Shown here piece by piece: positions 1-63,332 of a stretch of 64,000 nucleotides of DNA. A program made the translations under genes and the position numbers. Under the pieces are notes generated by a model. The model saw only the letters and a list, made by a program, of their open reading frames with translations, ran no database searches and had not been told where the DNA came from. Location of the stretch: contig JACPNL010000019.1 of assembly GCA_016185505.1 (NCBI GenBank), positions 2,885 to 66,884 on the forward strand, read 5' to 3'. This DNA is from Candidatus Yanofskybacteria bacterium (GTDB lineage Bacteria > Patescibacteriota > Minisyncoccia > 2-02-FULL-40-12 > GWA2-44-9). How positions within the stretch are numbered: the first letter of the stretch is position 1; each line of letters begins with the position of its first letter.

Positions 1-84
1 TTTGTTGAGATTATTAAACCATATATATTGCCATCAATGAGATACAAGTTGGGAATATTAGGAACACAATTGCCTAAAAAGTAA
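1..84 (+). CDS. 3' end of an intron-encoded LAGLIDADG homing endonuclease (partial; starts upstream of the window)
   Basis: Frame-1 translation FVEIIKPYILPSMRYKLGILGTQLPKK* matches the C-terminal ...IGPYIIPSMIYKL... of the two LAGLIDADG ORFs at 518 and 1422, implying a further upstream intron in the 23S gene. Confidence 0.45.
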   Translation, partial: FVEIIKPYILPSMRYKLGILGTQLPKK

Positions 85-1296: not shown

Positions 1297-1329
1297 GCTT
1301 ATCCTGGGGGTGAAGAAGCTCCCAAGGGT

Positions 1330-2187
1330 GAAAGAACAAACTCGCCCATCTAGAAGAGATTCTAGATAAAATAACCGACTAATAACGGTGGAGTCGTAAT
1401 TAAATTTATGTTAAAATTAATATGAATTTAAACGATAATACCGTGGGAAGTTTAAGGCAAAAAATAGATTTAAGCGATAGGGAAATGAGTGTTTTAATCG
1501 GCACCATTCTTGGCGATGCATATATTGAACAGTATCCCAAAGATGCTCGGATTAGTATTATGCATTCACTAAAACAAAAAGAATTTGTCGAATGGAAATA
1601 CAAAGAGTTGGGAAGATTCGTGAAAATGAAACCAATGCAGTCAGAATACTTTGATCCCAGATATGGTAAGAAGTATTTTTGGCGGAGGTTTCAGACTAGA
1701 AGATTTCCGGAATTTAAGGAATTGGCCGATATTTTCTACGTTGGAAAAACAAAAATTATTCCCCGTACTATCAGCCAAATATTAACACATCCATTAGCTC
1801 TCGCGGTTTGGTATATGGATGATGGCGGAAGAAGAAAGGACTGTCACGGAATGTTTTTGAACACATTAAGCTATTCAAAACAAGAACAGATAGTGCTACA
1901 AAAATGTCTCCTAAAAAACTTTGGAATTCACACAAGAATCCATTGGGTTACTGATGGATTCAGATTGTATATCCCAACGGCAGATGCTAAAAAATTCAGC
2001 ACTCTTATCGGTCCATATATTATCCCATCCATGATCTATAAATTACCTTATAACCCCGTAACGACTGAATCCGCCGGAATATGGCGGAGGAGATAGATTG
2101 AAATAATATCTATCAAACGTCGGGCCCGTCTCTCATGGAGAGCGGAGCAAGGTATAGTCTGTGCTCTTAGTAATAAGAGAAACACAC
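1330..2187 (+). other. Group I intron 2 in 23S rRNA (after CCCAAGGGT) carrying a LAGLIDADG ORF
   Basis: Exon breaks at ~1329 and resumes at ~2188 (GGCTGTTCGCC). Contains CGACTAATAACGGTGGAGTC and the TATAGTCTGTGCTCTTAGTAATAAGAG core. Confidence 0.55.
1422..2096 (+). CDS. LAGLIDADG homing endonuclease (two-motif type)
   Basis: Motifs LIGTILGDAYIE and AVWYMDDGGRR. Paralogous to the ORF at 518. Confidence 0.8.
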   Translation: MNLNDNTVGSLRQKIDLSDREMSVLIGTILGDAYIEQYPKDARISIMHSLKQKEFVEWKYKELGRFVKMKPMQSEYFDPRYGKKYFWRRFQTRRFPEFKELADIFYVGKTKIIPRTISQILTHPLALAVWYMDDGGRRKDCHGMFLNTLSYSKQEQIVLQKCLLKNFGIHTRIHWVTDGFRLYIPTADAKKFSTLIGPYIIPSMIYKLPYNPVTTESAGIWRRR

Positions 2188-2237
2188 GTTGGCTGTTCGC
2201 CAATTAAAAAGCTACGCGAGCTGGGTTCAGACCGTCC

Positions 2238-3018
2238 GATTACAAATCATCGGGGCGGCTCTGTCAAGTAATTGACAGATGTTAAATCGACTCATATCGG
2301 AGAAGTCCTATTGCTTCAAAACCAACCGAAGCAAGGGTAATTCCGAGGGAAGTCTTCCGTTCAAATTTTTGGAAAAGAAAAACCGCGATTATTTACTCGC
2401 GGGCGTGGTCGGCGATGGGCACTGTGCAATAGAAAGCATTATGCCACTCATATAAGCACCATTCCACGAAGAAGAAGGCAGTAAAGAAGAAGGCAATGAT
2501 AGATGGAAAAAATCTGCAGCATTCTCTGCGTCTTTATCAGATAAAGAAAAACTAGCCAGCTCTTTTTTGTCGATACTGATAGTAAATTTATAGTTCATCT
2601 TTCGTTGCCTATTGTAAATATTAAGAACTTGAATCAGGGTATTAAATTATTTAAATTTTGTCAATTAAAAATTGACTCCAAAAATTTGAACGGAATGACC
2701 CCGTAGAGACTTGTTGAGTTAAACTCAACGGACGAAATCTATAAATTTCGTAATATGTCGATCAACCATTGTTTTGCATTGGGAAACTCTAAATTCAAAA
2801 CCCTAAACTCTAAACAATATCAAATATCAAAATCTAAAACTCAAAACTTTTAAGATTTTAAATTTGTAATTTGTTTAGAAATTAGAAATTAGGATTTAGA
2901 AATTCCACTGCTTTGCAGTGGCTGGTGGTATAGTCCATACTCTTAGTAATAAGAGATGTTCAGAGTTCAGATTTCAGATATCGGACATCCGATATCTGAT
3001 TTCCGATGTCTGATTATG
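2238..3018 (+). other. Group I intron 3 in 23S rRNA, ORF-less and filled with low-complexity repeats
   Basis: Exon breaks after GACCGTC (2237) and resumes at CGTGAGACAG (3019). Shares the TATAGTCCATACTCTTAGTAATAAGAG core, but no LAGLIDADG ORF remains; instead it holds AT-rich tandem repeats and the palindrome CAGATATCGGACATCCGATATCTG. Confidence 0.5.
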
Positions 3019-3081
3019 CGTGAGACAGGTTGGTCCATATCTGGTGCGGGCGTTAATACTTGAGAGGAGTTGTCCCTAGTA

Positions 3082-3965
3082 AAGTATTGCTACTTCACGG
3101 AGTAATCCGTGATGACAACGCGACTAATAACGGTGGAATCTTAATATTTCTGGATCTGTTGATAGCCATAATTTCAATCGGTCCGTAAATTGTGGTACAA
3201 TTTACTTGAGGACCAGAAACTATTAAGACAATACCGTGGGAAGTCGATCTAAAATTGATCTAGCGTATATGGCCGGTTTTCTTGATGGAGACGGAAGCTT
3301 GATGTTCCAACTCAAGAAACGCAAAGACGGCAAAAAGAAATGGCGGTTTATGTGCACTGTCTGTTTTTATCAAGACAGCAGGCACGATAAGACACTTCAT
3401 TGGATAAGAAGCAAGCTAAATATTGGCTATGTGTCTAAACGCAATGATGGAATGTCAGAGTTGAGAGTAAATGGGTTTAAACAAATCCGAGATATTCTCA
3501 ATGACTTATTGCCATTTGTGAAGTTTAAAAGAGTCCAGGCAAATGCTATGCATAAAGCCACGACCCTTTTGAGCAAAAAGCATAGTGGTCAACTTAATAA
3601 AAATGAACTTATTAGATTAGTTGATTATATTCTAGAAATTCAGAAGAAGAACTATGTAACAAAACGCAAGAAAGGCAGAAAAGAGTTATTATCAATTTTG
3701 GGTTTGACCCCGTAACGACTTGTTCTCGCCAACGGCGGGACGGATAGAAGTTTTTTAGCTTCTATAATATGTCGCTGACCAATGGAGGTTGGAGATTAGA
3801 GATTGGATGTTGGATTTATTCTAACTTCTCATTTCTAACCTCTAACTTCCGTTGGTTAAAGATATAGTCTACACCCGTAGTGATACGGGATAATCAATTC
3901 GCAATTCGCGGCATTCGCATATCATTTGTAGATTTGCATTATGTTGCGAGCGGAGAGAGCATGTG
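3082..3965 (+). other. Group I intron 4 in 23S rRNA (at CCTAGTA^CGAGAGGACC) carrying a LAGLIDADG ORF
   Basis: Exon breaks at ~3081 and resumes at 3966 (ACGAGAGGACCGGG). Contains CGCGACTAATAACGGTGGAATC, CCCCGTAACGAC and a CTAACYTC repeat block at 3781-3860. Confidence 0.55.
3236..3715 (+). CDS. LAGLIDADG homing endonuclease (single-motif type)
   Basis: Motif LAYMAGFLDGDGSLMF. Starts directly after the conserved intron motif ATACCGTGGGAAGT (GTG start, or ATG at 3269). Confidence 0.7.
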   Translation: MGSRSKIDLAYMAGFLDGDGSLMFQLKKRKDGKKKWRFMCTVCFYQDSRHDKTLHWIRSKLNIGYVSKRNDGMSELRVNGFKQIRDILNDLLPFVKFKRVQANAMHKATTLLSKKHSGQLNKNELIRLVDYILEIQKKNYVTKRKKGRKELLSILGLTP

Positions 3966-4242
3966 ACGAGAGGACCGGGATGAACGAACCTCTGGTCTGC
4001 CAGCTGTTCTGCCAAGAGCAGCGCTGGGTAGCTATGTTTGGTTCTGATAAGCGCTGAAAGCATATAAGCGCGAAGCAGGCCTCAAGATTAGGTATCGGGA
4101 CGCAAGTCCCAAAATTTCCTTGTAGATGACGAGGTTGATAGGGCTTAGGTGTAAGCGCCGTGAGGCGTTGAGCCGAGAGCTACTAATAAATTTACTTTGA
4201 GTAATTTGTCGCTCCTCACTTTTGTTCGGAGCTCTTCCTACA

Positions 4243-4460: not shown

Positions 4461-4574
4461 CTTGGTGGCAATGCTGACGTTGTACTACCTGATCCCATTC
4501 CGAACTCAGAAGTAAAAGACGTCAAGGCCCATGATAGTCAGCATTAGCTGGCGAAAGTAGGTAGCCGCCAGACC
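4461..4574 (+). rRNA. rrf: 5S rRNA
   Basis: CTTGGTGGCAATGCTGACG...CCCATTCCGAACTCAGAAGTAAAAGACG...GGCGAAAGTAGGTAGCCGCCAGAC aligns with the bacterial 5S consensus. It is flanked by the inverted repeats CTGGAAAATAAAAATTATTGG / CCAATAATTTTTATTTTTATCCAG, which would form a processing stem. Confidence 0.8.
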
Positions 4575-6121: not shown

Positions 6122-6268
6122 TAAATTATTCTAATTGACCTAATTATTCTAATTATTCTAAAGAAATCCCAATATCAAAATGTCCAATGTCTAAAATTAT
6201 TTAGTTATTGGGTCATTAGGATTTATTTAGGTCAATTAGGTTAATTAGTATAATTAGAATAATTTTCA
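6122..6268. repeat. Dispersed palindromic intergenic element (TAATTATTCTAATT family), copy 1
   Basis: CTAATTATTCTAATTATTCTAAAG...GTCATTAGGATTTATTTAGGTCAATTAGGTTAATTAGTATAATTAGAATAATT. Near-identical copies lie at 29817-29957 and 46100-46350. Confidence 0.6.
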
Positions 6269-6294
6269 GATGATTACATTCGACTACTGTATTT

Positions 6295-7392: not shown

Positions 7393-7859
7393 TACCGCAT
7401 TTGACAGTGGGTCAAGATTTTGATATTCTGTTGACAGCAGTACTTGACAAGTTTTTACAGAGTAATAAAATAGAAAGATTGTCTTTAAAAAGCGGCCAAG
7501 TATGCGGGGAAATGGCCTCCGGAGCCATTTTGGGCATGATATTGAAAACCATAGCCGAAGCGCTATAAAAATAAGAAATCGAGAAATGAATCGCAGAAAC
7601 ACAGAAGGAACGGAAGACGCGGAACAGGAAAGAAATTAAGATATTAAGAAATAGAGAAATTAATAAGCAAAATATCGTAAAAAGATATCTTAATTTCTAA
7701 ATTTCTTAGTTTCTAAGTTTCTGATTTTCTTGTCTCCCCATTTTAATTAAAATTTAATAAAAATATTAGTAACGCTGTAAAGTAGCGGATTTGTTTTGTT
7801 GCCACAAATTTTCACACTGACAGATACGGACAGGAAACGGACAATAACTGACAACTAAA

Positions 7860-11045: not shown

Positions 11046-11190
11046 TTTCAACCAATTCAACTAAATGTAAAATGCAAATATCAAAAATCAAAATGACAAT
11101 TCAAAATGTAAAGAATAATCAGAAATCAGAAAATTTTAAATTTTATACTGTCATTTTACACTTTGATTTTTAAATTTTAAATTTCTTATC
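11046..11190. repeat. AAAATGTAAAATGACA-family AT-rich inverted repeat element in the rpoB-rpoC spacer
   Basis: AAATGTAAAATGCAAATATCAAAAATCAAAATGACAATTCAAAATGTAAAG...TATACTGTCATTTTACACTTTGATTTTTAAATT. Related copies lie at 32043-32190 and, in frame, inside uvrC at 33541-33600. Confidence 0.5.
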
Positions 11191-18101: not shown

Positions 18102-19004
18102 ATGGCAAAAAAACAAGACGATTCAAAATCAAAACAGGTCGATCTGACTGTTAAAGAACTTCAGGAGAAATACGGCGAGGGGTCAATAATGAAGCTTGGC
18201 GAAGCCAAGAAAGTAGATATCGACGCCATATCGACTGGCTCCATATCTTTGGATTTAGCATTGGGAGTAGGCGGCATACCCAGGGGTAGGATAATAGAAA
18301 TCTACGGGCCGGAAAGTTCCGGTAAGACAACTTTGTGTTTACACATAGTATCTGAAGCTCAAAAGCTTGGCGGTATTGCCGCTTTTGTGGACGCAGAGCA
18401 CGCGCTTGATCCGGAATATGCAAAAAAAATAGGAGTTAAAATAGACCAGCTTTTAATTTCCCAGCCTGATACGGGAGAGGGTTTGCAGGCGCGCTTGATG
18501 TCCCACGCGTTAAGGAAACTTACGGCTATTGTGGCCAAGTCCAATACCACCGTAATTTTTATAAACCAGTTAAGAATGAAGATAGGCGTTATGTTCGGTA
18601 ATCCCGAAATTACCACCGGCGGTATGGCTTTGAAATTTTATTCTTCGGTTCGTATTGAAGTCCGTCGCGCGGCTCAAATACAATCAGGAGAAAAAATAGT
18701 GGGGAATAGGGTGAAAGTAAAAGTGGTTAAAAACAAAGTCGCGCCCCCGTTCAGAACTTGCGAATTCGATATTCTCTATAATGAGGGCATCTCAAAATAT
18801 TCCGATGTTGTTAACGCCGGAGTTAAATACGGCATAGTGGCTAAAGCGGGAAGTTGGTACAACTACCTGCCTGCGCAGGCAGGTGGCGAACCAATAAGAT
18901 TGGGTCAAGGTATAGACGGCTCGAGATTGTTTCTCAAAGATAATCCCAAAGTGGAGCGGGAAATTCTAAACAAAATTAAGGAGGCCGCAACGCGCGAGGC
19001 ATAA
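18102..19004 (+). CDS. recA: Recombinase RecA
   Basis: GPESSGKTT Walker A and full-length RecA homology. Confidence 0.95.
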
Positions 19005-19046
19005 AATATCGAAATTTCGATATGTCGATATTTCGAAATATCTTTT

Positions 19047-29814: not shown

Positions 29815-29816
29815 AA

Positions 29817-29957
29817 AATTATTCTAATTATTCTAATTGCTCTAATTATTCTAAATAATACCCAATATCTAATTTCTGAATGTCTAAAAAATATTTAGTC
29901 ATTTAGTCATTAGGATTTATTTAGGTCAATTAGGTTAATTAGAATAATTAGGTTAAT
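29817..29957. repeat. Dispersed palindromic intergenic element (TAATTATTCTAATT family), copy 2
   Basis: ATTCTAATTATTCTAATTGCTCTAATTATTCTAAATAATACCCAATATCTAA...GTCATTAGGATTTATTTAGGTCAATTAGGTTAATTAGAATAATTAGG. Confidence 0.6.
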
Positions 29958-31769
29958 TTATCTCCACACTCTTTTCGTGTCTATATACCACCCCTCAATA
30001 TTTATGAATCTGTCCGAAGGCAACGATATTAATTTGCCATTTGAGCTTTTTATTTTTTTGGCTTGGCCGTGAATGTAAAGCGGATTATATAGAAATACCG
30101 CCGGAATGTCTTCTATGGCTAATTTTTGGAAGTCGTCGTATTTCTTGGCCCGCTCAAGAGGGTTAAGCGTCTGTCGAGCGTCCTCAAGGAGAGTGTCGGC
30201 GGCTTTATTATCGTAAAGGGCGAGGTTCAGGCCGGGGTCTCTTTTTTGCGAGGAATGCCACAAGCTGAAAGGGTCAGGGTCTATGTTGAGCACCGTTCCG
30301 AAAAGCAATGCTTCGTAGTTCCTGTCCTTTATCGTTTGCTGGAGTTCTGGCGTAGGCAGGACTTCAATGTCAACTTGGGCTCCGACGTCTTCCCACTGCT
30401 CTTTTATTATTTTAGCAACTTCCGTCAGTTCAGGCCAGGTTGATGTGGTGATCTTTATGCTCAACCTCTGGTCTTTCTTGGACAAAATACCGTTCTCGTT
30501 TGCTTTCCACCCCGCTGTTTCAAGTATCGTTTTTGCCAGTTCAGGGTCATGTTCATATTTTTTAACGCTATTCGGTATGTCGAGGACTCCTCCCATCATC
30601 GGAGAGTGTACGGCAACGCCCCTTGATCCCAAGACCTTTTCTATCAGGGTGTTTTTGTCGGTGGCGTGACTTAAGGCCAAGCGTACGTTCTTGTCCGATA
30701 GTATGGCGCTCTTGTTCTGATTAAAGAAAACGGCAAAGTAGCGGGGGAGTTGGAGTTCTCTTAGGTTGAGACGCTGTTTGAATTTGGTTCTCTTTAAGTT
30801 ATCTGGTGAGACAAAACTTAGTCCCTCTATCTCATTTCTGTTGTAAGCATCTATCATCTCATCTTCGGAAACATAGAATTTTATCTCTATGTCATTGATG
30901 AACGGCCTGCCCCCGTAGAAGTCCTTATTAGCCAACAGTTGATATGATCGTATCCTGCCATCCTTGTCTTTTTTTAGCCGGTCGAATTTGTAAGGGCCGG
31001 AACCGATTGGCTTTAAGTTGAATTCTGAAAGAGCAAAGTTTATTGGTTTGACATCTTGCCAAATGTGTTTAGGTAGTATCTTCACGGTCAGATTATTGAG
31101 GAACTGGGCGTACCTTGCCTGGAGTTTGAACATCACCGCAAGGTCATTGACCTTTTCGATTTGGACGCCCTGCCAGTTGATTCGCTGAGGGCTTCCGTAA
31201 TCGGAATTCTGGGCCGTCTGGATGGTAAATATTATATCGTCGGCGGTAACCCGCTTGCCGTCATGCCAGCGGGCGTCTTCTTTTAAGTAAACGGTGTAAT
31301 TCAGGCCGTCGCTTGATATCTCATATGACTGCGCCAAATCGGGCACTATCTTGCCTTCGCCATTATACTCAAGAAGTCCGGAGTAGATGAGATATACCAG
31401 GTCTCTGTCGGTGTCGTTGGCTTGGGAAAGGAGGGGATTGATGTGGCGCGGTCCGTTAACCATACCTTCGGTGAACTTGCCGCCGTAATCAGGAGCTTGG
31501 ACGGTAAAGTGGAAATATGTTGTGAAGGGTATGGCAACAATAGAACCCAGTATCACAAGAACCAAGGCCGCGACAATATATCTTTCCTTCCTGGATAGCG
31601 CTTTGGGAATAAGCCGTATTTTGAGCTTGTTCTGGACCTTTTTGGCGAGGGTTTCTCGTATGCCGTGATTTTTGTCTTCCCCGTTCTTTAGACCAAAAAA
31701 ATCATCGAGTTGGTTGTTATCGTTCACGCGAACATAATGCAAAACTACAAATCTGCGCGAATGCCGCAA
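29958..31769 (-). CDS. ABC transporter substrate-binding protein, family 5 (OppA/DppA-like)
   Basis: SBP_bac_5 homology across ~500 aa after an N-terminal TM anchor. Confidence 0.8.
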   Translation of the reverse strand: MRHSRRFVVLHYVRVNDNNQLDDFFGLKNGEDKNHGIRETLAKKVQNKLKIRLIPKALSRKERYIVAALVLVILGSIVAIPFTTYFHFTVQAPDYGGKFTEGMVNGPRHINPLLSQANDTDRDLVYLIYSGLLEYNGEGKIVPDLAQSYEISSDGLNYTVYLKEDARWHDGKRVTADDIIFTIQTAQNSDYGSPQRINWQGVQIEKVNDLAVMFKLQARYAQFLNNLTVKILPKHIWQDVKPINFALSEFNLKPIGSGPYKFDRLKKDKDGRIRSYQLLANKDFYGGRPFINDIEIKFYVSEDEMIDAYNRNEIEGLSFVSPDNLKRTKFKQRLNLRELQLPRYFAVFFNQNKSAILSDKNVRLALSHATDKNTLIEKVLGSRGVAVHSPMMGGVLDIPNSVKKYEHDPELAKTILETAGWKANENGILSKKDQRLSIKITTSTWPELTEVAKIIKEQWEDVGAQVDIEVLPTPELQQTIKDRNYEALLFGTVLNIDPDPFSLWHSSQKRDPGLNLALYDNKAADTLLEDARQTLNPLERAKKYDDFQKLAIEDIPAVFLYNPLYIHGQAKKIKSSNGKLISLPSDRFINIEGWYIDTKRVWR

Positions 31770-32553: not shown

Positions 32554-33981
32554 TTATGATAGCGCTTTTTGGTGACGGTGTCTATAATAAGCTATTGCGA
32601 ACCGATGAGCTTCGGCATCAATATGGAGGATTAAATTGCGGACATCGGCCGGGAGTTTTGACAAAGAGATCGAATTTTTATTGCCGGCTACATAAATTTT
32701 ACTACCTCGGTGTCTCTCGTCCTTGGTTAAGGCAATGATCCCAAGATATTGGTTAATTGTTAATTGTAAGTTGTCAATTATTGAACGCGCCGCGTTCAAC
32801 TGCGCTTTTCCGCCATCTATTAATATCAAGTCAGGCAATGGCCACTCCGGATGGCTAAATCGGCGAGAGAGTATTTCTTTAAGCATACCAGTATCTCCTC
32901 CTACTGCGCTACCCGCTACTGCGCTACTGCGCTGTTTGATTTTGAATTTCCTGTACCCGCTCTTACTTGGTTTTCTGTTTACAAATACCGCCATTGCTCC
33001 AACGGCGTATTTGCCTTGAATATTAGCCACATCATAACCCTCAATGCGGTGCGGTACGTTTGACAGCTTAAATACCCTCCTTATTTGTTTCAAAGTATCC
33101 TTGTATTGATATTTTGATATATCAATAGATTTTATAATTTGAGCATTTTCAAAGACGTGCTTTATTTTTTCTATTTTGTTGCGTAATTCGATCGCTTCTT
33201 CGAACTCTTCTTTCCGGCCTAAAGCAATCATTTCTTTTTCCAGTTTTTTAAGCAGAGATGTCTTCTTGCCATTTAGGATATCTTTTATTGCCTTTACGTT
33301 TTTCTGGTAACGATTCTTTAATTCTACGAAATTATCATATGATAATTTCGTAGAACGATTTAATATATTCGTGGTTTTCAAGCAACAAATGCCGGGGCAC
33401 TTGCCTATATGATAGTTCAAGCAGAAGTTATTGTGGGGTTTCTTGCAAGTGCAGTAGGGGAATATTCTTCGCAGGTAGAGCAGAGTCGTCTTTAGTGCTC
33501 CAATATCTGTAAATGGTCCGATAAATTCGGCTTTAAAATTTTTACATTTTGAATTGTCATTTTGCATTTTGATTTTTGCATTTTGATTTTTTGTTGGCTG
33601 ATGTGTGATAAATATTTTGGGGTATGTTTCTTTTGTAAAGCCGACAAAGCCGAACTGCTTGTCGTCGCGGAGCATTATATTGAACGCTGGCTTGTATCTT
33701 TTTATGTACTGCGATTCCAATATCAGGGCCTCAATTTCGGAGTCGGTTTCAATGGTCTTAATTCTTTTTGCCAGGGAAACCATTTTCTGGAGCCGTGTAT
33801 CCGCGGTTTTTACATATTGCTTGATTCGATTTTTCAGATTTGACGCTTTGCCGATGTACAAATTCAGACCCGAAATATTTTTGAATAAATACACGCCGGG
33901 CTTAGCGGGTATTTTCCGCATTAATTTTATAAGATGGCTGCTTGTCATGATTAGGGCAATATTATAATATGTTTTTAGCAA
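32554..33981 (-). CDS. uvrC: UvrC-like excinuclease (shortened) carrying two in-frame repeat insertions
   Basis: GIY-YIG N-terminal (PGVYLFKNISGLNLYIGKASNLKNRI), Cys-rich CTCKKPHNNFCLNYHIGKCPGIC, and endonuclease-domain LILIDGGKAQLNAA. At 475 aa it lacks the usual C-terminal HhH region. In-frame repeats lie at 33541-33600 (AAAATG family) and ~32890-32940 (GCTACTGCG tandem). Confidence 0.8.
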   Translation of the reverse strand: MLKTYYNIALIMTSSHLIKLMRKIPAKPGVYLFKNISGLNLYIGKASNLKNRIKQYVKTADTRLQKMVSLAKRIKTIETDSEIEALILESQYIKRYKPAFNIMLRDDKQFGFVGFTKETYPKIFITHQPTKNQNAKIKMQNDNSKCKNFKAEFIGPFTDIGALKTTLLYLRRIFPYCTCKKPHNNFCLNYHIGKCPGICCLKTTNILNRSTKLSYDNFVELKNRYQKNVKAIKDILNGKKTSLLKKLEKEMIALGRKEEFEEAIELRNKIEKIKHVFENAQIIKSIDISKYQYKDTLKQIRRVFKLSNVPHRIEGYDVANIQGKYAVGAMAVFVNRKPSKSGYRKFKIKQRSSAVAGSAVGGDTGMLKEILSRRFSHPEWPLPDLILIDGGKAQLNAARSIIDNLQLTINQYLGIIALTKDERHRGSKIYVAGNKNSISLSKLPADVRNLILHIDAEAHRFAIAYYRHRHQKALS

Positions 33982-46103: not shown

Positions 46104-47994
<1,891 letters not shown>

Positions 47995-53570: not shown

Positions 53571-53770
53571 ATACTAATATTGTGGGACAATATCAAAATC
53601 TGGTCAAAGAGCAAGAAAAGTTAAGAAAAACGCTTAAAGACAACGAGCGTAAGCTTTTGTTTCTTAAACAATATCTGAAACATGTTGAGGATATAAAAAT
53701 TAGTCGAAACCAAATTAAGAATAAAAAACTAATTTCACAGGAGGAACTGTTTAATGAACTTGGAATCTAA
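53558..53770 (+). CDS. Putative antitoxin (partner of RelE/ParE)
   Basis: Small ORF overlapping the start of the toxin gene by 17 nt; helical and charged. The start may be M at 53567. Confidence 0.35.
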   Translation: MWCMNTNIVGQYQNLVKEQEKLRKTLKDNERKLLFLKQYLKHVEDIKISRNQIKNKKLISQEELFNELGI

Positions 53771-54029
53771 GTGGAAGATAAAGTATACCGATAATGCCGC
53801 GGATGATTTAAGAAAACTGCCCGAAAAATTACAGAGGCGCATCGCCGAGAAGATGCGTTTCTTTGTTTTATCAAGCGCCATGATTGTGCATGCCAAAAAA
53901 TTGAAAGATAATAAATATGGCACTTATCGTCTTCGTGTGGGTGACTATCGTGTTATTTTTGATAAAAATGATAAAACAAAAGAGTTATATGTTCTTAAAA
54001 TAGGCAAAAGAGACGAAGTGTATAAATAA
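53754..54029 (+). CDS. RelE/ParE-family type II toxin
   Basis: 91 aa with a RelE/ParE-like pattern (...YRLRVGDYRVIFDKNDKTKELYVLKIGKRDEVYK). Confidence 0.65.
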   Translation: MNLESKWKIKYTDNAADDLRKLPEKLQRRIAEKMRFFVLSSAMIVHAKKLKDNKYGTYRLRVGDYRVIFDKNDKTKELYVLKIGKRDEVYK

Positions 54030-54030
54030 T

Positions 54031-54116
54031 GGAGGGGTGTACCGAATGGTAAGGTACCCGCTTGGAAAGCGGGCGCCCGCAAGGGCTTGCAGGTTCGACT
54101 CCTGTCCCCTCCGCCA
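54031..54116 (+). tRNA. tRNA-Ser (anticodon GGA)
   Basis: GGAGGGG acceptor, TTGGAAA anticodon loop, long variable arm, GGTTCGACTCC T-arm, CCA encoded. Confidence 0.85.
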
Positions 54117-57300: not shown

Positions 57301-57429
57301 CAAAAATTCAATATACCCGGGATGGGTGTTCAGTTCTTTATTCCGTTCGTGGGTTTGCCCGCCCAGATGACGTGGCGGCTGGAAGATAAGAGGTTGATAC
57401 CGACTTTCTATGTTGCTATGCCCTGGTAG
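54349..57429 (+). CDS. Large exported multidomain protein: HExxH zincin-like N-domain, TolB-like beta-propeller, C-terminal Omp85/BamA-like motif
   Basis: Signal peptide ...LGLAINSAYAQ; HELAHEF plus FHEGGAEF. Repeated TolB-type blades (SWSPDGSKMAFF, SPSFASNGESLVFSA, SWPSWSDDGSTIVYASDE). The C-terminus FGGPEFGRGAEYGG...MELRFPIP...VRAFLYDDMAVA...GMGVQFFIPFVGLP...YVAMPW resembles the Omp85 barrel signature and ends in an aromatic residue. The start codon is uncertain. Confidence 0.7.
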   Translation: MRIKSVFLIPLVVGRVKQRGRHATLRCWLPCPVLCFALVLGLAINSAYAQLGQFGKNNVRYNQLDKFYKSYRFDVRHNLDTNDPVQKEYLEMVVANLENARDRMSGQQFYNHTIKKRIPIFLYKTHADMESSNLVGGFLPEGVGAFVECGRRREVLKADFSKPLSRAIGVHELAHEFQCDILDPGFVDKVMNNRRPLWFHEGGAEFIAGLYEPHTRDDIRRDGQRIASSDRHFIPTWEACNQGRANPYSECEMIFELLEEKFSAGVAFQVQGFKQIKVGLGELLYDLTKGELGNPDVDSEKFNQGITRFWMDKYEDEFNARPKPDEKNDNFEGRLVMPWGHSAPMSSPRVSLDGKQLAVFTVFKYGVGLGKYEIPKDKIYVSKEEREKLADANQAFGPNGHELVNLTPQLPPIPWEGVISQLETWSFNGFDESWSPDGSKMAFFAKTKDHALMLIDAETGDVLRKIELPLDQAFSPSFASNGESLVFSAAKDTTRDIYMIKLESGEFENLTKDARYDTAPQFSSVEGKVVYVGSDGDFQHLFLMDLSNGNDRITIEQLTFGDFNDSWPSWSDDGSTIVYASDEADGIWNLYTLELSTRTVRQWTEFLLGSKTPVFAKGTTDTVYHVSAAEDTQSGGVFDKVFEAKLKKPIREYTVRDTGSAGTYVFNPSRDLIKFELDENQLLNPTPAPEQWECGGGEVAFGASTYWGIVSQGFVRCSNILETKHHLGRYVSYYGINIFDYSNINQEKRTTWLWGISHNQMPLSYRHYDIAKRFPKQPILNRTWVKESSLNLSAAYPFSKFKRLELYSKLRHRSFANVLNPDELSVDDLQVKRFLDNSTGSNFVFGTAYVRDTVLSSGNTWGPFHGNALRAQIEFAPPLGEEFQGYTSVNISGRTYRHLGSNSLFAGRVDLMANTRANGDYILFGGPEFGRGAEYGGIICNQCAYASMELRFPIPGTYLLGAPVRAFLYDDMAVARFSDERFPVQKFNIPGMGVQFFIPFVGLPAQMTWRLEDKRLIPTFYVAMPW

Positions 57430-57469
57430 AAATTAAGAAATTCAGAAATAAAGACATTAAGTAATTAGT

Positions 57470-57535
57470 GAGGTCGAACCTCCCTCGGGAGGTTCGACCC
57501 CTAACCCTCGCTCTTGCGGGGGTTTTTAATTAATG
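57470..57535 (+). terminator. Tandem hairpin terminator
   Basis: GAGGTCGAACCTCCCTCGGGAGGTTCGACCCC followed by CCCTCGCTCTTGCGGGGGTTTTT. Confidence 0.5.
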
Positions 57536-57676
57536 AATTTTCCTATCATTATGATACGATGGTGTATCATAGTAAATGGGCAAGGCGACTTGCCCATTTA
57601 CTTTTAGCGAGATGTGGCGCGGGGTTGCTACCCATAAATTATTGGTATAGAGTTATGAAAAGTTCATTTACAAGGA

Positions 57677-58351
57677 TTGATAATGAGAAAAGGCCTTGTT
57701 TTAGCGCTGATTGTTTTCTTTTTCTGTACCAACTTTGCCAGAGCCGATACGCCGCCCGCGGTGAGCTTGTCGAAGCCGTTTCCGGCGAATTGTTCCGTGC
57801 CGATTCCCGATATGAGCAACTGGCCAATTATTCGAAAAACGCGCGTCGAATTTCGTATTTCCGACGAGACGCCGGCTTATCTCGGCGCGGCTATTGAATA
57901 TAAGAATTATCGCGGCTCTGCTGATTTCGGAGAATTTATACAGATGTTCGGTCGCCATACTCCTTTTATACCTCAAAGGCAAAAACCGGACGAGCAATCA
58001 TTTTTTCAGACCGCGGCTTTTCTTTATGCTCAACAGGAAGAAGAGACAACCCTCCGGCAGCTTGACAAACAAATTGACCCGATTCTTTATATAAGATGGC
58101 GGGTCAAAACAGATCAGCGCGTCAACGGAGACAAATTGGACGCGGATGTTGACGTATGGTTTTTACAGTCAAACGGACGATGTTTATTTGCTCAAAATGA
58201 AAAAATATCCATTCAGTTGCTGACAGAAAGTATGGGAGACGGCGAATCGCGTAATGTTTTTGCCGGAGTCAGATACAAAATAGACGATCTCTCTCATATT
58301 CTAAAAGCTGATCGCCGTGATATTGCTAACTTGATGAACGGAGGCCGCTAA
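57677..58351 (+). CDS. Hypothetical secreted protein
   Basis: Signal peptide MIMRKGLVLALIVFFFCTNFARA; 224 aa. Palindromic operator-like sites lie upstream (TATGATACGATGGTGTATCATA; AAATGGGCAAGGCGACTTGCCCATTT). Confidence 0.45.
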   Translation: MIMRKGLVLALIVFFFCTNFARADTPPAVSLSKPFPANCSVPIPDMSNWPIIRKTRVEFRISDETPAYLGAAIEYKNYRGSADFGEFIQMFGRHTPFIPQRQKPDEQSFFQTAAFLYAQQEEETTLRQLDKQIDPILYIRWRVKTDQRVNGDKLDADVDVWFLQSNGRCLFAQNEKISIQLLTESMGDGESRNVFAGVRYKIDDLSHILKADRRDIANLMNGGR

Positions 58352-59730
58352 TGACTAAAACATTGCGTCTTTCATTTGTTTCCTATCTCCTAATTCCTAT
58401 CTCCTGTTTCCTGCTTTTGTCCGGTTGCGCCGGCAAAAAGATCAAAATAGACCCGAGTAACCCCGTTTATGGGCCAAAGAACGATTTTGAACGAGATTAC
58501 GGTTTCTTTATTACTCCGGATGAGAAGAAAAACGGTTATGCCGCGGGGTTTTGCCTCGGGTTGGCGAGACCGGAAACGATTCAACCGTTTAATGAAATTG
58601 ACACACTGGCAGAGTTTCGCAAGTTTGAAAAATGCTTCTGGGATATACGGGATACTAATACGCAAACTTCGCAGAATGAATTTAAGGTGTTGATCGACGG
58701 CCGACTCAAAGATATCGAAAACGAGATCTTTGCTTCTGATATTGATATTCCGGGTACGCGTTTTCAGGGTCCCAGCGGCGGCCTGAAGGGGGACTTGGCC
58801 CATGTTTATCTGCTCTGGGGCGCGCCTGCGCCGGGCAATAAAGCAAAATTGAATAAGGGCAGTTATCATACCGAATTGACGGTTTGGTATTATTTTTTCA
58901 ACAACAGGGTTTTATTCAGTTTTCTCTTCTATAATGATCATGGCCGAGTCCGGTTGTTTAAGGAATATGGGGCCTTGTTTGGGCTGGATCTTTTTGATCC
59001 GCTGGCTTCTCCTTTGCGATTGATCGGCAATCGGCCGGCTAATACACGGGAAGAGATGATGGAGATTTGGAATGAACTTGAATATAATGATCCGGAAGAA
59101 ATATTTAGAAACGCTTTGTTTAGATTCTCGTCCTACAAGGACTGGGTGGTTGAGAACGGAAACGGCAAAGACAAATTTGGGGCTATTGATCCTCCCATAC
59201 CGATAATGCTGGCCGCGAAACGGTTTAGGCCAACAATTTTAGGTCAGCCGAATATCCCCGAAGGAACGGAGTTGTTCGAAAACGGGTATCACTCGTTTAT
59301 TCCGGTAGATCTCCAGATCGCCGCCGATCCGATCGGGGGCAGACCTTCTTTCTCGTTTACGGTGGCTTATGCCGACCTGGACTGGGAGGTTAAAGATAAA
59401 ACAGCCGAAGCGGTTCTGAATGTCAGGATCAGTTTTCAAAATAAGAAAACCCGAGCTCTGGATGAATTTGAAACCAGGGTAGTATTTAAGGGGCCGCGGC
59501 AAGCCGTTGAGTCCTTGATTCGCGGAAAGAATCCCAAAACAGGCGAACCAAATTCCAGAACAGTTGATCTGAATGGGATGATGAATTTTGCGGCCGGTAA
59601 GGATCAAGCCACTCTGCGCCAGTTGATCGATGGATTTGAACAGAGCGAGTATGTGGTCAATATCTACTTCCAGCACACTCTCACTAAGAAATACAATACT
59701 TGGCGAGAAGAGATAGAAATTAAGAAATAG
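58351..59730 (+). CDS. Hypothetical lipoprotein
   Basis: Signal peptide plus lipobox LLSGCAG; 459 aa. Start overlaps the previous stop (ATGA). Followed by the terminator GAAATTCCCTGCGGGGAATTTTTT at 59756-59782. Confidence 0.5.
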   Translation: MTKTLRLSFVSYLLIPISCFLLLSGCAGKKIKIDPSNPVYGPKNDFERDYGFFITPDEKKNGYAAGFCLGLARPETIQPFNEIDTLAEFRKFEKCFWDIRDTNTQTSQNEFKVLIDGRLKDIENEIFASDIDIPGTRFQGPSGGLKGDLAHVYLLWGAPAPGNKAKLNKGSYHTELTVWYYFFNNRVLFSFLFYNDHGRVRLFKEYGALFGLDLFDPLASPLRLIGNRPANTREEMMEIWNELEYNDPEEIFRNALFRFSSYKDWVVENGNGKDKFGAIDPPIPIMLAAKRFRPTILGQPNIPEGTELFENGYHSFIPVDLQIAADPIGGRPSFSFTVAYADLDWEVKDKTAEAVLNVRISFQNKKTRALDEFETRVVFKGPRQAVESLIRGKNPKTGEPNSRTVDLNGMMNFAAGKDQATLRQLIDGFEQSEYVVNIYFQHTLTKKYNTWREEIEIKK

Positions 59731-59884
59731 AGAAATTTAGATATTAAGATATTAAGAAATTCCCTGCGGGGAATTTTTTCTGGACATTTTTTATGCATTG
59801 GTATATAATTGAATAACATTTAAATATTCAGGCATCTCAAAGGGACCAAAAGTCCTTTATAATAAATACTTTCTTAAGTATTAG

Positions 59885-59914: not shown

Positions 59915-61968
59915 ATGGATAATGTTTCTAAAATTAAGGATCGCTTAAGCGTGGTTGATGTCATTTCCGGGTACCTGAAACTCCAAAAAGCCGGAGCGAA
60001 TTTCAAGGCCTCTTGTCCTTTTCACAACGAAAAAACGCCATCGTTTTTCATATCTCCCGAACGCCAGACGTGGAAGTGTTTTGGTTGTTCCAAGGGTGGT
60101 TCGATCTTCGATTTTGTAATGGAGATGGAGGGGGTTGAGTTTCCCGAGGCATTGAGAATACTTGCCGCAAAGGCAGGCATAGAACTGGAAAAGTTTGACT
60201 CTACCATCAAGGACTCAAAAGATCGCCTCTATCAAATATGCGAGTCATCAGCCCGGTTTTTCGAAAAGCAATTAAGCTATTCCGGCGCGGGCCGACGAGC
60301 TATTGAATATTTGAAAAGCAGAGGGCTCCAGGAGACAACGATGGCAAAATTCCGTCTTGGGTTCGCGCCCGATACATGGGATGCATTGAGCGGATATTTA
60401 CGCAATTCTGGTTTTACTGAAAAAGAGATAGTGGATGCGGGAGTAGTGGTCAAAAGACAACCAACAACCAACAACCAACAACAGGGATCTACGACAGGTT
60501 TCGTTCGCGCATAATGTTTCCTGTTTCGGATGCTAACGGCAGGGTTGTGGGGTTCACTGGCCGCATCTTTGAAGACAAGGTCCCGACGCGCGAAGTGGTC
60601 GGGACCCCGACTTCTGATTTTGATCAAGCCACAAAGGGGCTCGACAACAGTCAGAGCGTCGTGGCCAAATATATCAATACCCCGCAGACGCTTATCTATG
60701 ACAAAAGCAGGATACTTTACGGCCTTGACCATTCCCGAACCGACATCAGAAAAAAGGATAAATGTCTTCTTGTAGAAGGCAATATGGACGCCATCATGTC
60801 TTATCAGGCTGGTGTGACGCACGTGGTTGCTTCATCGGGAACCGCTCTTACGCCGATGCATCTTGCCATCCTGAAAAGATTTACTAACAATCTGGACTTC
60901 TGCTTTGATACGGATTCTGCCGGAGTGATGGCGACCAAAAGGGGTATAGCAATAGCGCTCGGACAGGATTTTAACGTCAAGGCGGTCTCACTTGACGACC
61001 CCGTAAAATCGTCTAAAGACGATCACGGGGCAAGATGCAAGGACCCCGCTGATTATATTCAGAGGTACGGAAGCAACCTCGCCGCTTCGGGTCCCGGAGT
61101 GGGATCCCAAGCACTCCTTGGGAACTCTGTCGGGGCAAGCTGGATAGAAGTGGTTGAAAAAGCGAAGCCGGTCGTGGAATTCTACTTTGATAAAGCCAAA
61201 GAAAGTTATAATCCCGAATCGGCGGAAAGTAAAAAGAATGTCATCTTGACCGTTGCTCCTTTCGTCAAGCGGCTTGTCAGCAACGTGGAGAGAACTCACT
61301 GGGTGAACCAGTTGGCGTATCTGCTTCGTGTGAAAGAAGAGGCCGTTGAGGCAGATATAAGGGATGCTCCTGATATTGATGTTGGCTATGTTGGAAGTGT
61401 TCGAAACGTTGGAAATGACAACTCGAACAACTCGAACAAGCCAGCAGGCGATCAAACAAGCGAAGCAGGGTACAGTCCTGTACCCCGCGAAGCGGTCGAA
61501 CAAGTGTTGAACGAGGCTCTATTATCCCTTGTTGTTAAAAAACCGGTATTATTCAAACAAGAAATCATGACGCTTGATAAAAGTTTTTTAAACCCGTTGG
61601 CATCACAAGTTCTTGATGAGTTGGCGAAGGAAGACCTGGAGCAATTCAATTTCAGCAATTTCATAAAAAAATTCGATTCGGATCCCGAACAACAGCAAGT
61701 TGTATACGGGGCAGGTAAAACACTTGATGTAGAATTTGTTTATCTAAGATCGCAAGCATTGTGGGACGATTTCAAAGATGACGAACTTAAAATGGAATTT
61801 AAAAATATATTCAATAAATTAAAACAAAAAACGATCCATTTGCGTCTTGCCGATCTCGGGTACGAAATGAGAGCGGCAGAAGCGGTTGGAGATAGAGCAA
61901 AGATAGGCGAACTCGCGTCGGTGTTTAATAAGTTGGCGGGGGAGTTGGCGGAGATACACAAAATTTAA
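59915..61968 (+). CDS. dnaG: DNA primase DnaG, split into two ORFs by an apparent frameshift inside a CAACCAA repeat
   Basis: ORF 59915-60514 gives the CHC2 zinc finger (CPFHNEKTPSF...WKCFGC). ORF 60514-61968 gives TOPRIM (LLVEGNMDAIMSYQAG) and the C-domain. The conserved IYDRFRSRIMFPVSD motif reads through from frame 1 at 60487, so the shift lies within CAACCAACAACCAACAACCAACAACAG (60457-60486). Confidence 0.7.
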
Positions 61969-62075
61969 ATCAAATATCAAATATCAAAAATCAAAACGAC
62001 AAATCAAAATTCAAAATTTCTAATCTTTCATATGTATTTCTAATCTTTGATATTTAATTTTTAATTTATATAATC

Positions 62076-63332
62076 ATGTCTAAATCAAAAAAACATCATA
62101 AAAAAAGGAGTGTCAAAAAGTTGATAAAGAGGAGAACGTCCCGGCCGAAAAAAATTACCAAGAAAGTCAAAAAGGCTAAAGCCAAAGGAACCCATCCTTC
62201 GCTAAAGCTACGGAGGGCAAAGAAAAAGTCGGGAGCAAAAAAAGCAGGCGCAAAACTCGGCGAGAGCGCCATTTTGGCTTTGATAGAGAAGGGGAAACAT
62301 CGGGGCTTCGTTACACAGTCCGAGGTTTTGAATTCTTTTCCCGAGGTTGAGAGAGATATCAAGGGCCTTGAGATGTTGTACGAACGGCTTGAGTCGTCGA
62401 ATATCAATATCATAGAATCAGGCAAGGTTTTTGAAGAAGAAAAGACCAAAGAATATGAGGAAAAGAAAAAGATACAAGAAGAGTTCGGCGAATCAGCGGT
62501 ATCTGATTCGGTCCAGATGTATCTTAAAGAAATAGGCCAGTATCCTTTGCTGACCGGAGACGAAGAAGTGGAATTAGCCAAAAGAATAGCGAAGGACGAT
62601 GAGGCGGCCAGGCAGCGTTTGGCGGTATCCAATTTGCGCCTCGTCGTATCAATAGCGAAAAAATACGTCGGCCGCTCGGCAAATCTGACCTTGCTGGATT
62701 TGATACAAGAAGGGAACATAGGCCTGTTCAAAGCGGTTGAAAAATTTGATTACAAAAAGGGCTTCAAATTCTCGACTTACGCGACCTGGTGGATACGCCA
62801 AGCCATAACCCGCGCTCTTGCCGATCAGGGCAGGACCATCCGCATTCCTGTGCATATGGTGGAGACGATAAACAAATACCAGCAGGTGGTGCGTCGGCTT
62901 GTGCAGGATTTAGGCCGAGACCCGCTTCCGGAGGAAGTAGCTTCGGAAATGGGCGTTGAAGTGGAGAAGATCAGGCATATTCAGAAGATATCGCAAGAAA
63001 CGGTCTCGCTTGAAGCGCCGGTAGGGGAGGACGATGACAGCGATAGCGCGCTGGAAAGTTTTATCCCCGATGAGGATACCATTTCTCCTTCAACTTCAGC
63101 CGCGAGGAAAATCCTCAAAACATATTTGAATGAAATAATCAGTGATCTGACTCCGAGGGAGCAGAAGATACTTGATATGCGATTTGGCCTCGGCGATGGC
63201 GTGACCCACACCCTTGAAGAAGTGGGCAAGGTTTTTGTTGTCACCCGCGAGCGTATCAGGCAGATAGAAGCCAAGGCGCTTGAGAAGATTCGCCAGCATA
63301 CCAAACTCGGAAAACTCAAGGGATACGAATAA
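62076..63332 (+). CDS. rpoD: RNA polymerase sigma factor RpoD (sigma-70) with a Lys-rich N-terminal extension
   Basis: Regions 1.2-4 conserved ([40 protein letters not shown]; C-terminal HTH). The first ~60 aa are KKxK-rich and histone-H1-like. Confidence 0.9.

What the first reader, a model, noticed from the sequence alone, without database searches (positions are those of the whole stretch)
60457..60515. dnaG is split by a frameshift located exactly in a CAACCAA microsatellite
The primase zinc-finger ORF ends at 60514. The TOPRIM and C-domain ORF is called from 60514, but the universally conserved IYDRFRSRIMFPVSD motif is readable from 60487 in the second frame. The frame change must therefore occur inside CAACCAACAACCAACAACCAACAACAG. 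All other repeat inserts in this window preserve the frame; this is the only essential gene with a break. It is either an assembly or homopolymer-type error at a repeat, a slippage-prone tract causing phase variation of primase, or a site needing translational frameshifting.
Basis: seen in the sequence. Interest (0 to 1): 0.55.

Follow-up and report, generated by a model that had tools for sequence, protein, structure and literature searches.

The report
Primase gene broken by seven-base repeat
The DNA primase gene of this uncultured Yanofskybacteria genome is out of frame because a seven-base repeat has four units where nine relatives have five. This is most likely a copying slip, in the cells or in the assembly, and not a designed switch.

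Summary
dnaG is split into ORF1 (59915-60514) and ORF2 (60514-61968). The only place where the frames can be joined is a perfect CAACCAA x3 (+CAACAGG) array at 60458-60485.

Nine relatives carry a five-unit CAAnnnn heptamer array (36 nt) at this same beta-hairpin loop, just before the invariant YDRFRSR motif. The window has four units, exactly 7 nt short. Adding one unit gives RQPTTNNQQPTTGIYDRF, which matches relatives such as RQPTTDNRQPTTGIYDRF in length and nearly in sequence.

Units are homogenised within each lineage and differ between lineages, so the array turns over by slippage. Two more out-of-frame alleles turned up in unrelated public assemblies, L166 and L167. With them, the spacer lengths form a 7-nt ladder: 18 and 39 nt in frame, 25 and 32 nt out of frame.

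I found no canonical slippery heptamer, no stimulatory downstream structure and no second dnaG in the window.

Best reading: unprogrammed loss of one unit from a hypermutable heptanucleotide microsatellite in an essential gene. Without reads I cannot say whether the loss happened in cells or in the assembler. For k<=27 the observed allele is a valid path through the k-mers of the intact allele.

The result is ordinary as a frameshift. It is moderately interesting as a conserved non-triplet microsatellite inside primase across Parcubacteria.

The parts
59915..60514 (+). dnaG ORF1 (199 aa): CHC2 zinc ribbon plus the first half of the DNAG_N domain, ending in a 10-residue out-of-frame tail (GSTTGFVRA*). 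NCBI calls it 'hypothetical protein HYX22_02330'.
60451..60457 (+). CAAAAGA, a proto-unit that overlaps the conserved K-R codons and forms the 5' edge of the array. In L087/L002 this position has been converted to the array unit.
   Evidence: read directly from the sequence
60458..60478 (+). Three perfect CAACCAA units of the heptanucleotide microsatellite. Relatives have four units here.
60479..60485 (+). Terminal degenerate unit CAACAGG, identical to the terminal unit of the closest relative L161.
60484..60487 (+). G GGA. This is the only place in the productive window (60421-60489) where a P-site tRNA could re-pair after a -1 slip, which would give ...NNQQQGIYDRF. It is a candidate site only, with no stimulators.
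   Evidence: read from the sequence; for the absence of structure
60487..60513 (+). IYDRFRSRI. The invariant primase motif (Y D R F R S R invariant in 32/32 sequences) is readable only in frame 2 and is encoded by neither called ORF.
60512..60516 (+). TAATG, where the stop of ORF1 overlaps the start of ORF2 by one base. The overlap comes from the R-I-M codons of the conserved motif.
60514..61968 (+). dnaG ORF2 (484 aa): second half of DNAG_N, Toprim and the DnaB-binding domain, intact. NCBI MBI2674550.1 'toprim domain-containing protein'.
60580..60663 (+). Second variable insert of DnaG (VPTREVVGTPTSDFDQATKGLDNSQSVV). It is predicted disordered and contains a 9-bp inverted repeat, GGTCCCGAC (60579-60587) / GTCGGGACC (60598-60606).
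61379..61439 (+). Two 9-nt tandem arrays in the C-terminal linker of DnaG. Their unit is a multiple of three, so they are frame-neutral.
62076..63332 (+). rpoD (sigma-70) immediately downstream, in the classical dnaG-rpoD arrangement. The same arrangement is seen in L166.

Best explanation
The break is an unprogrammed loss of one 7-nt unit from a heptanucleotide microsatellite that is a long-standing feature of this loop of DnaG in Parcubacteria.

Shown:
- The array encodes the loop of a beta-hairpin just before the invariant YDRFRSR strand.
- Relatives carry five CAAnnnn units there (39 nt between the K/R-R codons and the Y codon). The window carries four (32 nt).
- Adding one unit restores a full-length primase whose loop matches relatives in length and almost in sequence.
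- The units are homogenised within lineages and differ between them.

Inferred:
- The array turns over by slipped-strand mispairing. Because 7 is not a multiple of 3, each single-unit step destroys the frame.
- This contig captured such a step. It is either an allele present in the sampled population or the path the assembler chose among co-existing alleles.
- Working primase in this organism comes from the five-unit (or two-unit) allele.
- The rest of the gene is intact and keeps every invariant residue, so the change is recent.
For: - Junction mapped into the array.
- Copy-number arithmetic.
- Nine long-loop relatives all have 5 units / 36 nt at the same site. The window's +1-unit reconstruction RQPTTNNQQPTTGIYDRF aligns without gaps to RQPTTDNRQPTTG, RQPTTDNLQPTTG and RQSAINNQQLTTG.
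- Mean unit identity is 0.77 within arrays and 0.48 between arrays at the same unit position.
- Perfect arrays of different units occur in other lineages (CAACCGA x4, CAACATC x5, CAGGAGA x4).
- Spacer lengths form a 7-nt ladder. 18 and 39 nt are in frame. 25 nt (L166, L167) and 32 nt (window) are out of frame.
- The loop tolerates change. Its length ranges from 4 to 14 aa among relatives. Alignments to solved E. coli DnaG structures have a gap there. The AF2 model has strand 178-180, loop 181-193 at pLDDT ~55, and strand 194-196.
- It is the only perfect non-triplet array with >=3 copies in 64 kb.
- There is no recoding signal.
Against: - dnaG is essential, so a lethal allele should not dominate a population consensus.
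- No reads or sibling genomes were available to show the intact allele. The best relative is 73% identical at the protein level.
- Tracts of only 4-5 units are expected to slip rarely.
- A 1-nt insertion next to the array (CAG GGG ATC) would also restore the frame, giving a 10-aa loop like that of P0038. The missing-unit reading is the most parsimonious one but is not proven.
Confidence: 0.6

Rival explanations
1. Purely in-silico or library artefact. Cells carry only the five-unit allele, and one unit was lost by de Bruijn graph collapse at low k or by PCR slippage during library preparation.
For: For k<=27, every k-mer of the observed allele also occurs in the +1-unit allele. The observed 26-nt run is therefore the shortest valid path through the graph of the intact allele. 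The run contains a 19-nt exact internal repeat. The gene is essential and otherwise intact. Fragments of related dnaG genes in public assemblies also show frameshift-like tails at other positions (P0125, P0137, P0219), so broken genes are a background feature of metagenome assemblies.
Against: From k=29 upward the observed allele needs its own read support, and common assemblers finish at much larger k. Longer perfect arrays in L082 (27-nt repeat), L090 (28 nt) and L087 (23 nt) were assembled in frame. The two other out-of-frame alleles, L166 and L167, have no exact repeat longer than 7 nt nearby and cannot be k-mer collapses. Illumina chemistry does not drop 7-nt units (my own knowledge).
Confidence: 0.25
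2. The four-unit allele is real and viable. Low-level frameshift suppression supplies enough primase, which is needed in few copies. A candidate mechanism is a -1 slip of tRNA-Gly on G GGA at 60484-60487, giving ...NNQQQGIYDRF. Polyploid complementation is an alternative. Out-of-frame array states would then be tolerated evolutionary intermediates.
For: G GGA sits at the 3' edge of the array, and a slip there restores the invariant motif. Lineage-specific homogenised five-unit arrays are hard to build by single-unit slippage without passing through out-of-frame states. L087/L002 looks like a compensated state, one unit plus 2 nt shorter. Three independent out-of-frame alleles have otherwise intact downstream ORFs. 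Out-of-frame states of a Mycoplasma bovis SSR-containing gene fragment, tested in E. coli, are reported to retain low expression through frameshift suppression (bioRxiv 10.64898/2026.04.01.715767).
Against: There is no X XXY YYZ heptamer. Reading the sequence shows no upstream SD-like element. The downstream 93 nt fold no better than shuffles (z=+0.91). The window needs -1 while L166 and L167 need +1, so no common mechanism applies. Single-tRNA slip sites like this one occur by chance. There are no expression data.
Confidence: 0.1
3. Adaptive phase variation. The array is a contingency locus that reversibly switches primase, and so replication, on and off.
For: A non-triplet repeat lies inside an ORF, and in-frame and out-of-frame states are both seen across lineages. 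This is the classical architecture of SSR phase variation (reviewed in PMC11868660 and PMC3315296).
Against: The target is an essential, single-copy replication gene, so OFF cells cannot propagate the allele. The tract is short (3.7 copies). Most relatives have degenerate arrays that would switch rarely. The array lies mid-protein in a loop, where SSRs are generally suppressed rather than selected (PMC3315296 abstract). No within-population variation could be observed.
Confidence: 0.04
4. dnaG is a genuine pseudogene, or works as two separate polypeptides, because another primase or a split arrangement takes over.
For: The TAATG stop/start overlap could couple translation of ORF2 to that of ORF1. 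L166 is annotated as the same two-gene arrangement.
Against: The break lies inside DNAG_N at profile position ~65-68 of 128, not at a domain boundary. Neither ORF encodes the Y-D-R-F-R-S-R residues that are invariant in 32/32 sequences. There is no second dnaG in the window. ORF2 shows no decay, and the window's sequence keeps every invariant column.
Confidence: 0.03

Closest known systems
SSR (simple sequence repeat) contingency loci of Neisseria, Haemophilus, Campylobacter and Mycoplasma
   Same: A tandem repeat whose unit is not a multiple of three lies inside an ORF. Gain or loss of a unit by slipped-strand mispairing shifts the frame. In-frame and out-of-frame alleles are both found.
   Different: The target is an essential replication gene, not a surface, LPS or restriction-modification gene. 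The tract is short (4-5 units). It sits mid-protein in a structural loop. It is conserved as an orthologous array across Yanofskybacteria and Sungbacteria relatives. Switching within a population has not been shown.
Reversible frameshifts in homopolymer tracts, e.g. M. tuberculosis glpK (PMC8639346, PMC10334774; listed)
   Same: An indel-prone repeat inside a housekeeping-type gene creates frameshifted subpopulations that can revert.
   Different: The unit is 7 nt, not a homopolymer. glpK is conditionally dispensable, whereas dnaG is not.
Programmed -1 ribosomal frameshifting of E. coli dnaX (reviewed in PMC5009743, listed)
   Same: A replication gene whose full decoding would need a -1 shift.
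   Different: There is no A AAA AAG-type slippery heptamer, no upstream SD-like sequence and no downstream hairpin. The frameshift is not conserved in orthologues. Other broken alleles need +1.
Endosymbiont genes with frameshifts in poly(A) tracts that are rescued by transcriptional slippage (Tamas et al. 2008, cited from my own knowledge)
   Same: Reduced-genome bacteria tolerate out-of-frame alleles of important genes at repeat tracts.
   Different: That rescue depends on long A/T homopolymers. Here the repeat is a heteropolymeric heptamer, for which no polymerase realignment mechanism is known.
Pairs of compensatory frameshifting mutations (PMC8935012)
   Same: L087/L002 is one unit plus 2 nt shorter than the five-unit state. 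It looks like a frameshift followed by a nearby compensating indel.
   Different: This is inferred from a single comparison, and a single-step 9-nt deletion is not excluded.

Membership tests
Bacterial DnaG primase | CHC2 zinc ribbon, DNAG_N catalytic core, Toprim and DnaB-binding domains | tested here: met
   Pfam hits PF01807, PF08275, PF13155/PF13662/PF01751 and PF10410. Solved structures 2au3 (E=4e-54), 1dd9 and 1eqn match.
Bacterial DnaG primase | One continuous ORF that includes the YDRFRxR motif | tested here: not met
   The domain is split at profile position ~65-68 of 128, and the motif is readable only in frame 2 upstream of the ORF2 start. 120 full-length relatives are single ORFs.
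SSR-mediated phase-variable (contingency) locus | Tandem repeat with a non-triplet unit inside the coding sequence | tested here: met
   CAACCAA x3.7, 100% matches. It is the only such array in the window.
SSR-mediated phase-variable (contingency) locus | Unit-number polymorphism within one species or population | not testable with these tools
   No reads are available. No relative above 73% aa identity was found in genome or metagenome collections. Exact-protein look-ups found no other contig.
SSR-mediated phase-variable (contingency) locus | ON and OFF alleles that differ by whole units among related sequences | tested here: inconclusive
   A 7-nt ladder of 18/25/32/39 nt exists, but across lineages that are 50-73% identical, not across strains.
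SSR-mediated phase-variable (contingency) locus | The target gene is dispensable, so OFF cells survive | tested here: not met
   The gene is dnaG, with no second copy in the window. Its essentiality is established knowledge, not tested here.
Programmed -1 ribosomal frameshift site | Slippery heptamer X XXY YYZ in the zero frame | tested here: not met
   None between 60421 and 60489. Only a single-tRNA site, G GGA, is present (sequence).
Programmed -1 ribosomal frameshift site | Stimulatory downstream structure | tested here: not met
   60488-60580 folds to -20.8 kcal/mol against a shuffle mean of -23.7, z=+0.91.
Programmed -1 ribosomal frameshift site | Frameshift conserved in orthologues | tested here: not met
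   Nine long-loop relatives and all short-loop relatives are in frame. L166 and L167 need +1.
Transcriptional slippage site | Long A or T homopolymer (about 9 or more) | tested here: not met
   The longest run near the site is AAAA at 60452-60455.
Naturally split two-subunit enzyme | Break at a domain boundary, with all conserved motifs retained in one of the pieces | tested here: not met
   The break is inside DNAG_N, and seven invariant residues are lost from both ORFs.

The most novel reading that the evidence does not exclude
In Parcubacteria, the heptanucleotide array in the DnaG hairpin loop evolves through viable out-of-frame intermediates. Cells carrying 3- or 4-unit alleles would survive because low-level frameshift suppression (for example G GGA in the window, CCC A in L166, AAA A in L167) or genome polyploidy still supplies the few primase molecules needed. 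The array would then act as a heritable throttle on replication in these slow-growing episymbionts.
Probability: 0.12. Interest if true: 0.8.

Novelty: new variant of a known kind. Interest (0 to 1): 0.42.

Why it matters
As a single broken gene in a MAG, this is minor. It should be annotated as one frameshifted dnaG, not as a 'hypothetical protein' plus a 'toprim domain-containing protein'.

The wider pattern is less ordinary:
- A microsatellite whose unit cannot preserve the reading frame has persisted at one loop of an essential replication enzyme across Yanofskybacteria and Sungbacteria relatives.
- Its units are re-homogenised in each lineage.
- Three independent assemblies caught it in out-of-frame states.

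If those states exist in living cells, they bear on how CPR bacteria tolerate mutational hazards in essential genes, and on whether replication capacity can vary heritably within a population. The locus is also a concrete marker for read-level studies of slippage rates in uncultured bacteria.

Tried and rejected
1. Sibling genomes. Exact-protein look-ups for both ORFs found no contig in the encoding-contig index. The cluster look-up found each ORF only once, on the source MAG's own 68,702-bp contig. Scans of genome contigs and metagenome contigs gave no relative above ~73% aa identity.
2. Downstream stimulatory structure: none.
3. Second primase gene in the window: none.
4. One-copy ancestral state. 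I first favoured RQPTTGIYDRF, the two-unit in-frame state counting the terminal unit. The nine five-unit relatives, and the identical terminal unit in the closest relative L161, make loss of one unit from five more parsimonious.
5. Mobile insert. I tested whether the second insert (60580-60663) is a multi-copy in-frame element of the Rickettsia-palindromic-element type. blastn and tblastn found it only at the orthologous dnaG position in L001, L083, L084, L095 and L161, so this is not supported with the data held.
6. Literature. I found no paper on heptanucleotide arrays or SSR frameshifts in CPR/Patescibacteria.
7. Origin of the MAG. I suspect the Northern California groundwater study (PMC7906910: 150-bp Illumina reads, MEGAHIT with default parameters), based on locus-tag style and on L008 coming from that project. 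I could not verify this.

Full report
**What is in the sequence**

The window comes from a Candidatus Yanofskybacteria MAG (Parcubacteria/CPR). NCBI holds both halves as separate proteins on a 68,702-bp contig: MBI2674549.1 'hypothetical protein HYX22_02330' and MBI2674550.1 'toprim domain-containing protein'.

ORF1 (59915-60514, 199 aa) carries the CHC2 zinc ribbon and positions 1-68 of the 128-position DNAG_N profile. The other frame is open from 60421. It carries DNAG_N positions 65-127, Toprim and the DnaB-binding domain, and its first start codon is the ATG at 60514. The motif IYDRFRSRI (60487-60513) is readable only in that second frame, upstream of the ATG. Neither called ORF therefore encodes Y-D-R-F-R-S-R, which is invariant in all 32 aligned primases.

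The two Pfam half-matches meet between nt ~60463 and ~60469. That lies inside a perfect heptanucleotide array, CAACCAA x3 followed by CAACAGG (60458-60485; TRF period 7, 3.7 copies, 100% matches). This is the only perfect tandem repeat with a non-triplet unit and at least three copies in the 64 kb.

**Arithmetic**

The shift needed is -1. Since 7 = 2x3+1, adding one unit or removing two restores the frame. Modelled alleles with 1, 4 or 7 perfect units give a single 679/686-aa primase, and 0, 2, 3, 5 or 6 do not.

**Comparative evidence**

No sibling genome exists in the collections. The closest relatives are 66-73% identical in protein, and all 120 best hits are single full-length ORFs.

Their DNA at this exact site is still informative. 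Between the conserved K/R-R codons and the I/V-Y-D codons, nine relatives carry five heptamer units (36 nt):

| Locus | Array |
|---|---|
| L082 | CAACCGA x4 + CAACTGG |
| L090 | CAACATC x5 |
| L081 | CAAGAGA CAATAGA CAATAGA CAAGAGG CAAGAGG |
| L095 | CAACCCA CAACTGA CAACCTA CAACCAA CAACGGG |
| L083/L001 | GAAGTTA CAAATTC CAAATTC CAAGCCC CAAATTC |
| L161 (closest relative) | CAATCAG CAATTAA CAATCAG CAATTAA CAACAGG |

L162, L163 and L164 carry more degenerate versions.

The window has four units. Its terminal unit, CAACAGG, is identical to that of L161. Adding one unit gives RQPTTNNQQPTTGIYDRF, which aligns without gaps to RQPTTDNRQPTTG (P0016/L082), RQPTTDNLQPTTG (P0033/L095) and RQSAINNQQLTTG (P0003/L161). 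What these arrays share is the DNA periodicity, with CAA at each unit start, and not a peptide. Mean unit identity is 0.77 within arrays and 0.48 between arrays at the same unit position. The array is therefore an old feature that keeps being re-homogenised, which is the signature of slippage. Other relatives have a short loop such as RESEGIY or RQEATGF, which corresponds to the two-unit, in-frame state.

**Structure**

In an AlphaFold2 model of the five-unit reconstruction (mean pLDDT 78), the array encodes the loop (181-193, pLDDT ~55) of a beta-hairpin between strands 178-180 and 194-196. Alignments to solved E. coli DnaG structures (1dd9, 1eqn) place a gap there, opposite TNDQGR-S. Loop length among relatives ranges from 4 to 14 residues. 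The site tolerates insertions, which explains how an array can persist there.

**More out-of-frame alleles**

A search with ORF1 returned many N-terminal fragments, mostly truncated by contig ends. Two of them are broken at this same loop.

- L166 (ENA ERZ4903072, Sungbacteria-like) has ORF1 ending in ...AIMRQPTTYNRLL*, then a 427-aa ORF2 that again starts at the M of R-I-M-F-P, then rpoD. This is the same architecture as the window.
- L167 (ENA ERZ27254846) reads ...RKEAKSYQLDLRSFPLAHHVPHH*, which is YDRFRSRITFPI read in the wrong frame.

Their spacers are CAACCCA CAACCTA CAACCGG T TAT and GAAGCTA AAAGCTA TCAGCTC GACT, both 25 nt.

Spacer lengths therefore fall on a 7-nt ladder:

| Spacer (nt) | State | Where seen |
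|---|---|---|
| 18 | in frame | two-unit relatives |
| 25 | out of frame | L166, L167 |
| 32 | out of frame | window |
| 39 | in frame | nine relatives |

L166 and L167 need +1 while the window needs -1. That fits unit-number variation and not a shared recoding device.

Sungbacteria relatives also have heptamer-coded loops here. From their peptides I infer the units: P0242 EQDSRFKMQDASR (likely CAAGATT-type) and P0245 EQDTRYKIQDTSG (likely CAAGATA-type). The QPTTNN-type peptide recurs at other variable sites: the second insert of P0244 and the C-terminal linker of P0033.

L087/L002 (CAGGAGA x4 + CAAGGAG + TT) is one unit plus 2 nt shorter than the five-unit state. It looks like a compensated frameshift.

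**Recoding**

Between 60421 and 60489 there is no X XXY YYZ heptamer, no long homopolymer, and no SD-like sequence that I could see in the sequence. The 93 nt downstream fold no better than shuffles (z=+0.91). The only site where a tRNA could re-pair after a -1 slip is G GGA (60484-60487). A slip there would yield ...NNQQQGIYDRF. This is a possibility, not evidence. The TAATG stop/start overlap (60512-60516) follows from the conserved R-I-M codons. Even if it couples translation, both polypeptides would lack the invariant motif.

**Artefact or real allele**

For k<=27, every k-mer of the observed allele is also present in the +1-unit allele. A low-k de Bruijn path through the intact allele would therefore give exactly the observed 26-nt run. 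From k=29 upward the observed allele needs its own reads.

Longer perfect arrays in L082, L090 and L087 were assembled in frame. L166 and L167 contain no exact repeat longer than 7 nt, so they cannot be collapses. However, other frameshift-like tails occur elsewhere in related fragments (P0125, P0137, P0219), which shows a background of broken genes in such assemblies. Without reads, the origin of the missing unit cannot be settled.

The gene is otherwise undecayed. ORF2 is intact and the window keeps every invariant column. The change is therefore recent, artefactual or tolerated.

**Verdict**

With about 0.9 confidence, the contig is one heptamer unit short of the in-frame state of a conserved, slippage-driven microsatellite.

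The best mechanistic reading (0.6) is an unprogrammed slipped-strand contraction captured by the assembly, with functional primase made from in-frame alleles. The rivals are a pure assembly or library artefact (0.25), a viable leaky allele (0.1), adaptive phase variation (0.04), and a pseudogene or split enzyme (0.03).

It works like an SSR contingency locus, but it fails the membership tests that matter: a dispensable target and demonstrated within-population switching. It is not a dnaX-type frameshift site.

Noticed in passing
window 1-4193 (insertion 449-3946): The 23S rRNA gene is interrupted. Rfam matches model positions 2101-2636 at 1-448 and positions 2652-2912 at 3947-4193. The ~3.5-kb insertion carries three LAGLIDADG homing-endonuclease ORFs (518-1153, 1422-2096, 3236-3715) and several period-7 arrays (2784-3015, 3819-3909). 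5S rRNA is at 4461-4573. Insertions in rRNA genes are known for CPR bacteria (my own knowledge).
   Followed up: partly
window 6122-6270, 29815-29960, 46105-46350: Three intergenic copies of a ~150-nt palindromic element built from 9-nt arrays (AATTATTCT x4 ... TTAGGTCAA / AATTAGAAT x3). The third copy has an extra ~110-nt GC-rich segment in its centre. No Rfam family matched at gathering threshold.
   Followed up: partly
window, most intergenic regions (e.g. 7630-7764, 11069-11184, 19004-19039, 57428-57467, 59715-59761, 61967-62067): Almost every intergenic spacer carries A/T-rich imperfect tandem arrays of period 7 or 8 (AGAAATTA, AAATCAA, TTAGAAA, AAATTTCG). About two thirds of the non-triplet TRF arrays lie in or at the edge of intergenic DNA. 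Their function is unknown.
   Followed up: no
window 60579-60663: The second DnaG insert (VPTREVVGTPTSDFDQATKGLDNSQSVV) is predicted disordered (pLDDT<50). It is shared by relatives that are only ~50% identical overall (P0045, and P0245 in Sungbacteria). It is unusually conserved at the DNA level: 96% over 50 nt with L161 and 90% with L001. It contains a 9-bp inverted repeat, GGTCCCGAC/GTCGGGACC. This could be a conserved nucleic-acid hairpin inside the coding sequence.
   Followed up: partly
window 33540-33591 (uvrC, minus strand, 32554-33981): uvrC contains a perfect 14-nt repeat x2.3 (TTTTGCATTTTGAT) within a looser period-7 array. It also has period-7 and period-8 arrays at 32752-32779 and 32901-32933. 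All are currently in frame, but the 14-nt repeat is another frame-breaking slippage hazard.
   Followed up: no
L167 1690-1722; P0033, P0244, P0054 (proteins): The same heptamer unit can occur at two different variable sites of one dnaG. L167 has AAGCTA-type units both in the hairpin loop and in the second insert (CAAGCTA TAAGCTA TAAGCTA CAAGCTG). QQPTTNNQQPTT-type peptides occur in the C-terminal linker of P0033 and in the second insert of P0244. This suggests lineage-specific 'favourite' heptamers that seed arrays at several loops.
   Followed up: partly
window 57514-57897 and 57677-58351: Two overlapping same-strand ORFs in different frames, neither with a Pfam match. This could be another frameshifted gene or a spurious ORF, and it is unresolved.
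   Followed up: partly
P0125 (protein only; no DNA held): A relative's dnaG fragment is in frame at the hairpin loop (KKDATSYKLQATSSIYDRF, which is consistent with CAAGCTA-type units). It goes out of frame inside the second insert...FPAPGGAAPPRGGG...QSISIRHRR is AKYINTPQT read in the wrong frame. The second variable site may therefore also be indel-prone.
   Followed up: no
window 53754-54116: A ParE-family toxin ORF (53754-54029) lies directly upstream of tRNA-Ser(GGA) at 54031-54116.
   Followed up: no
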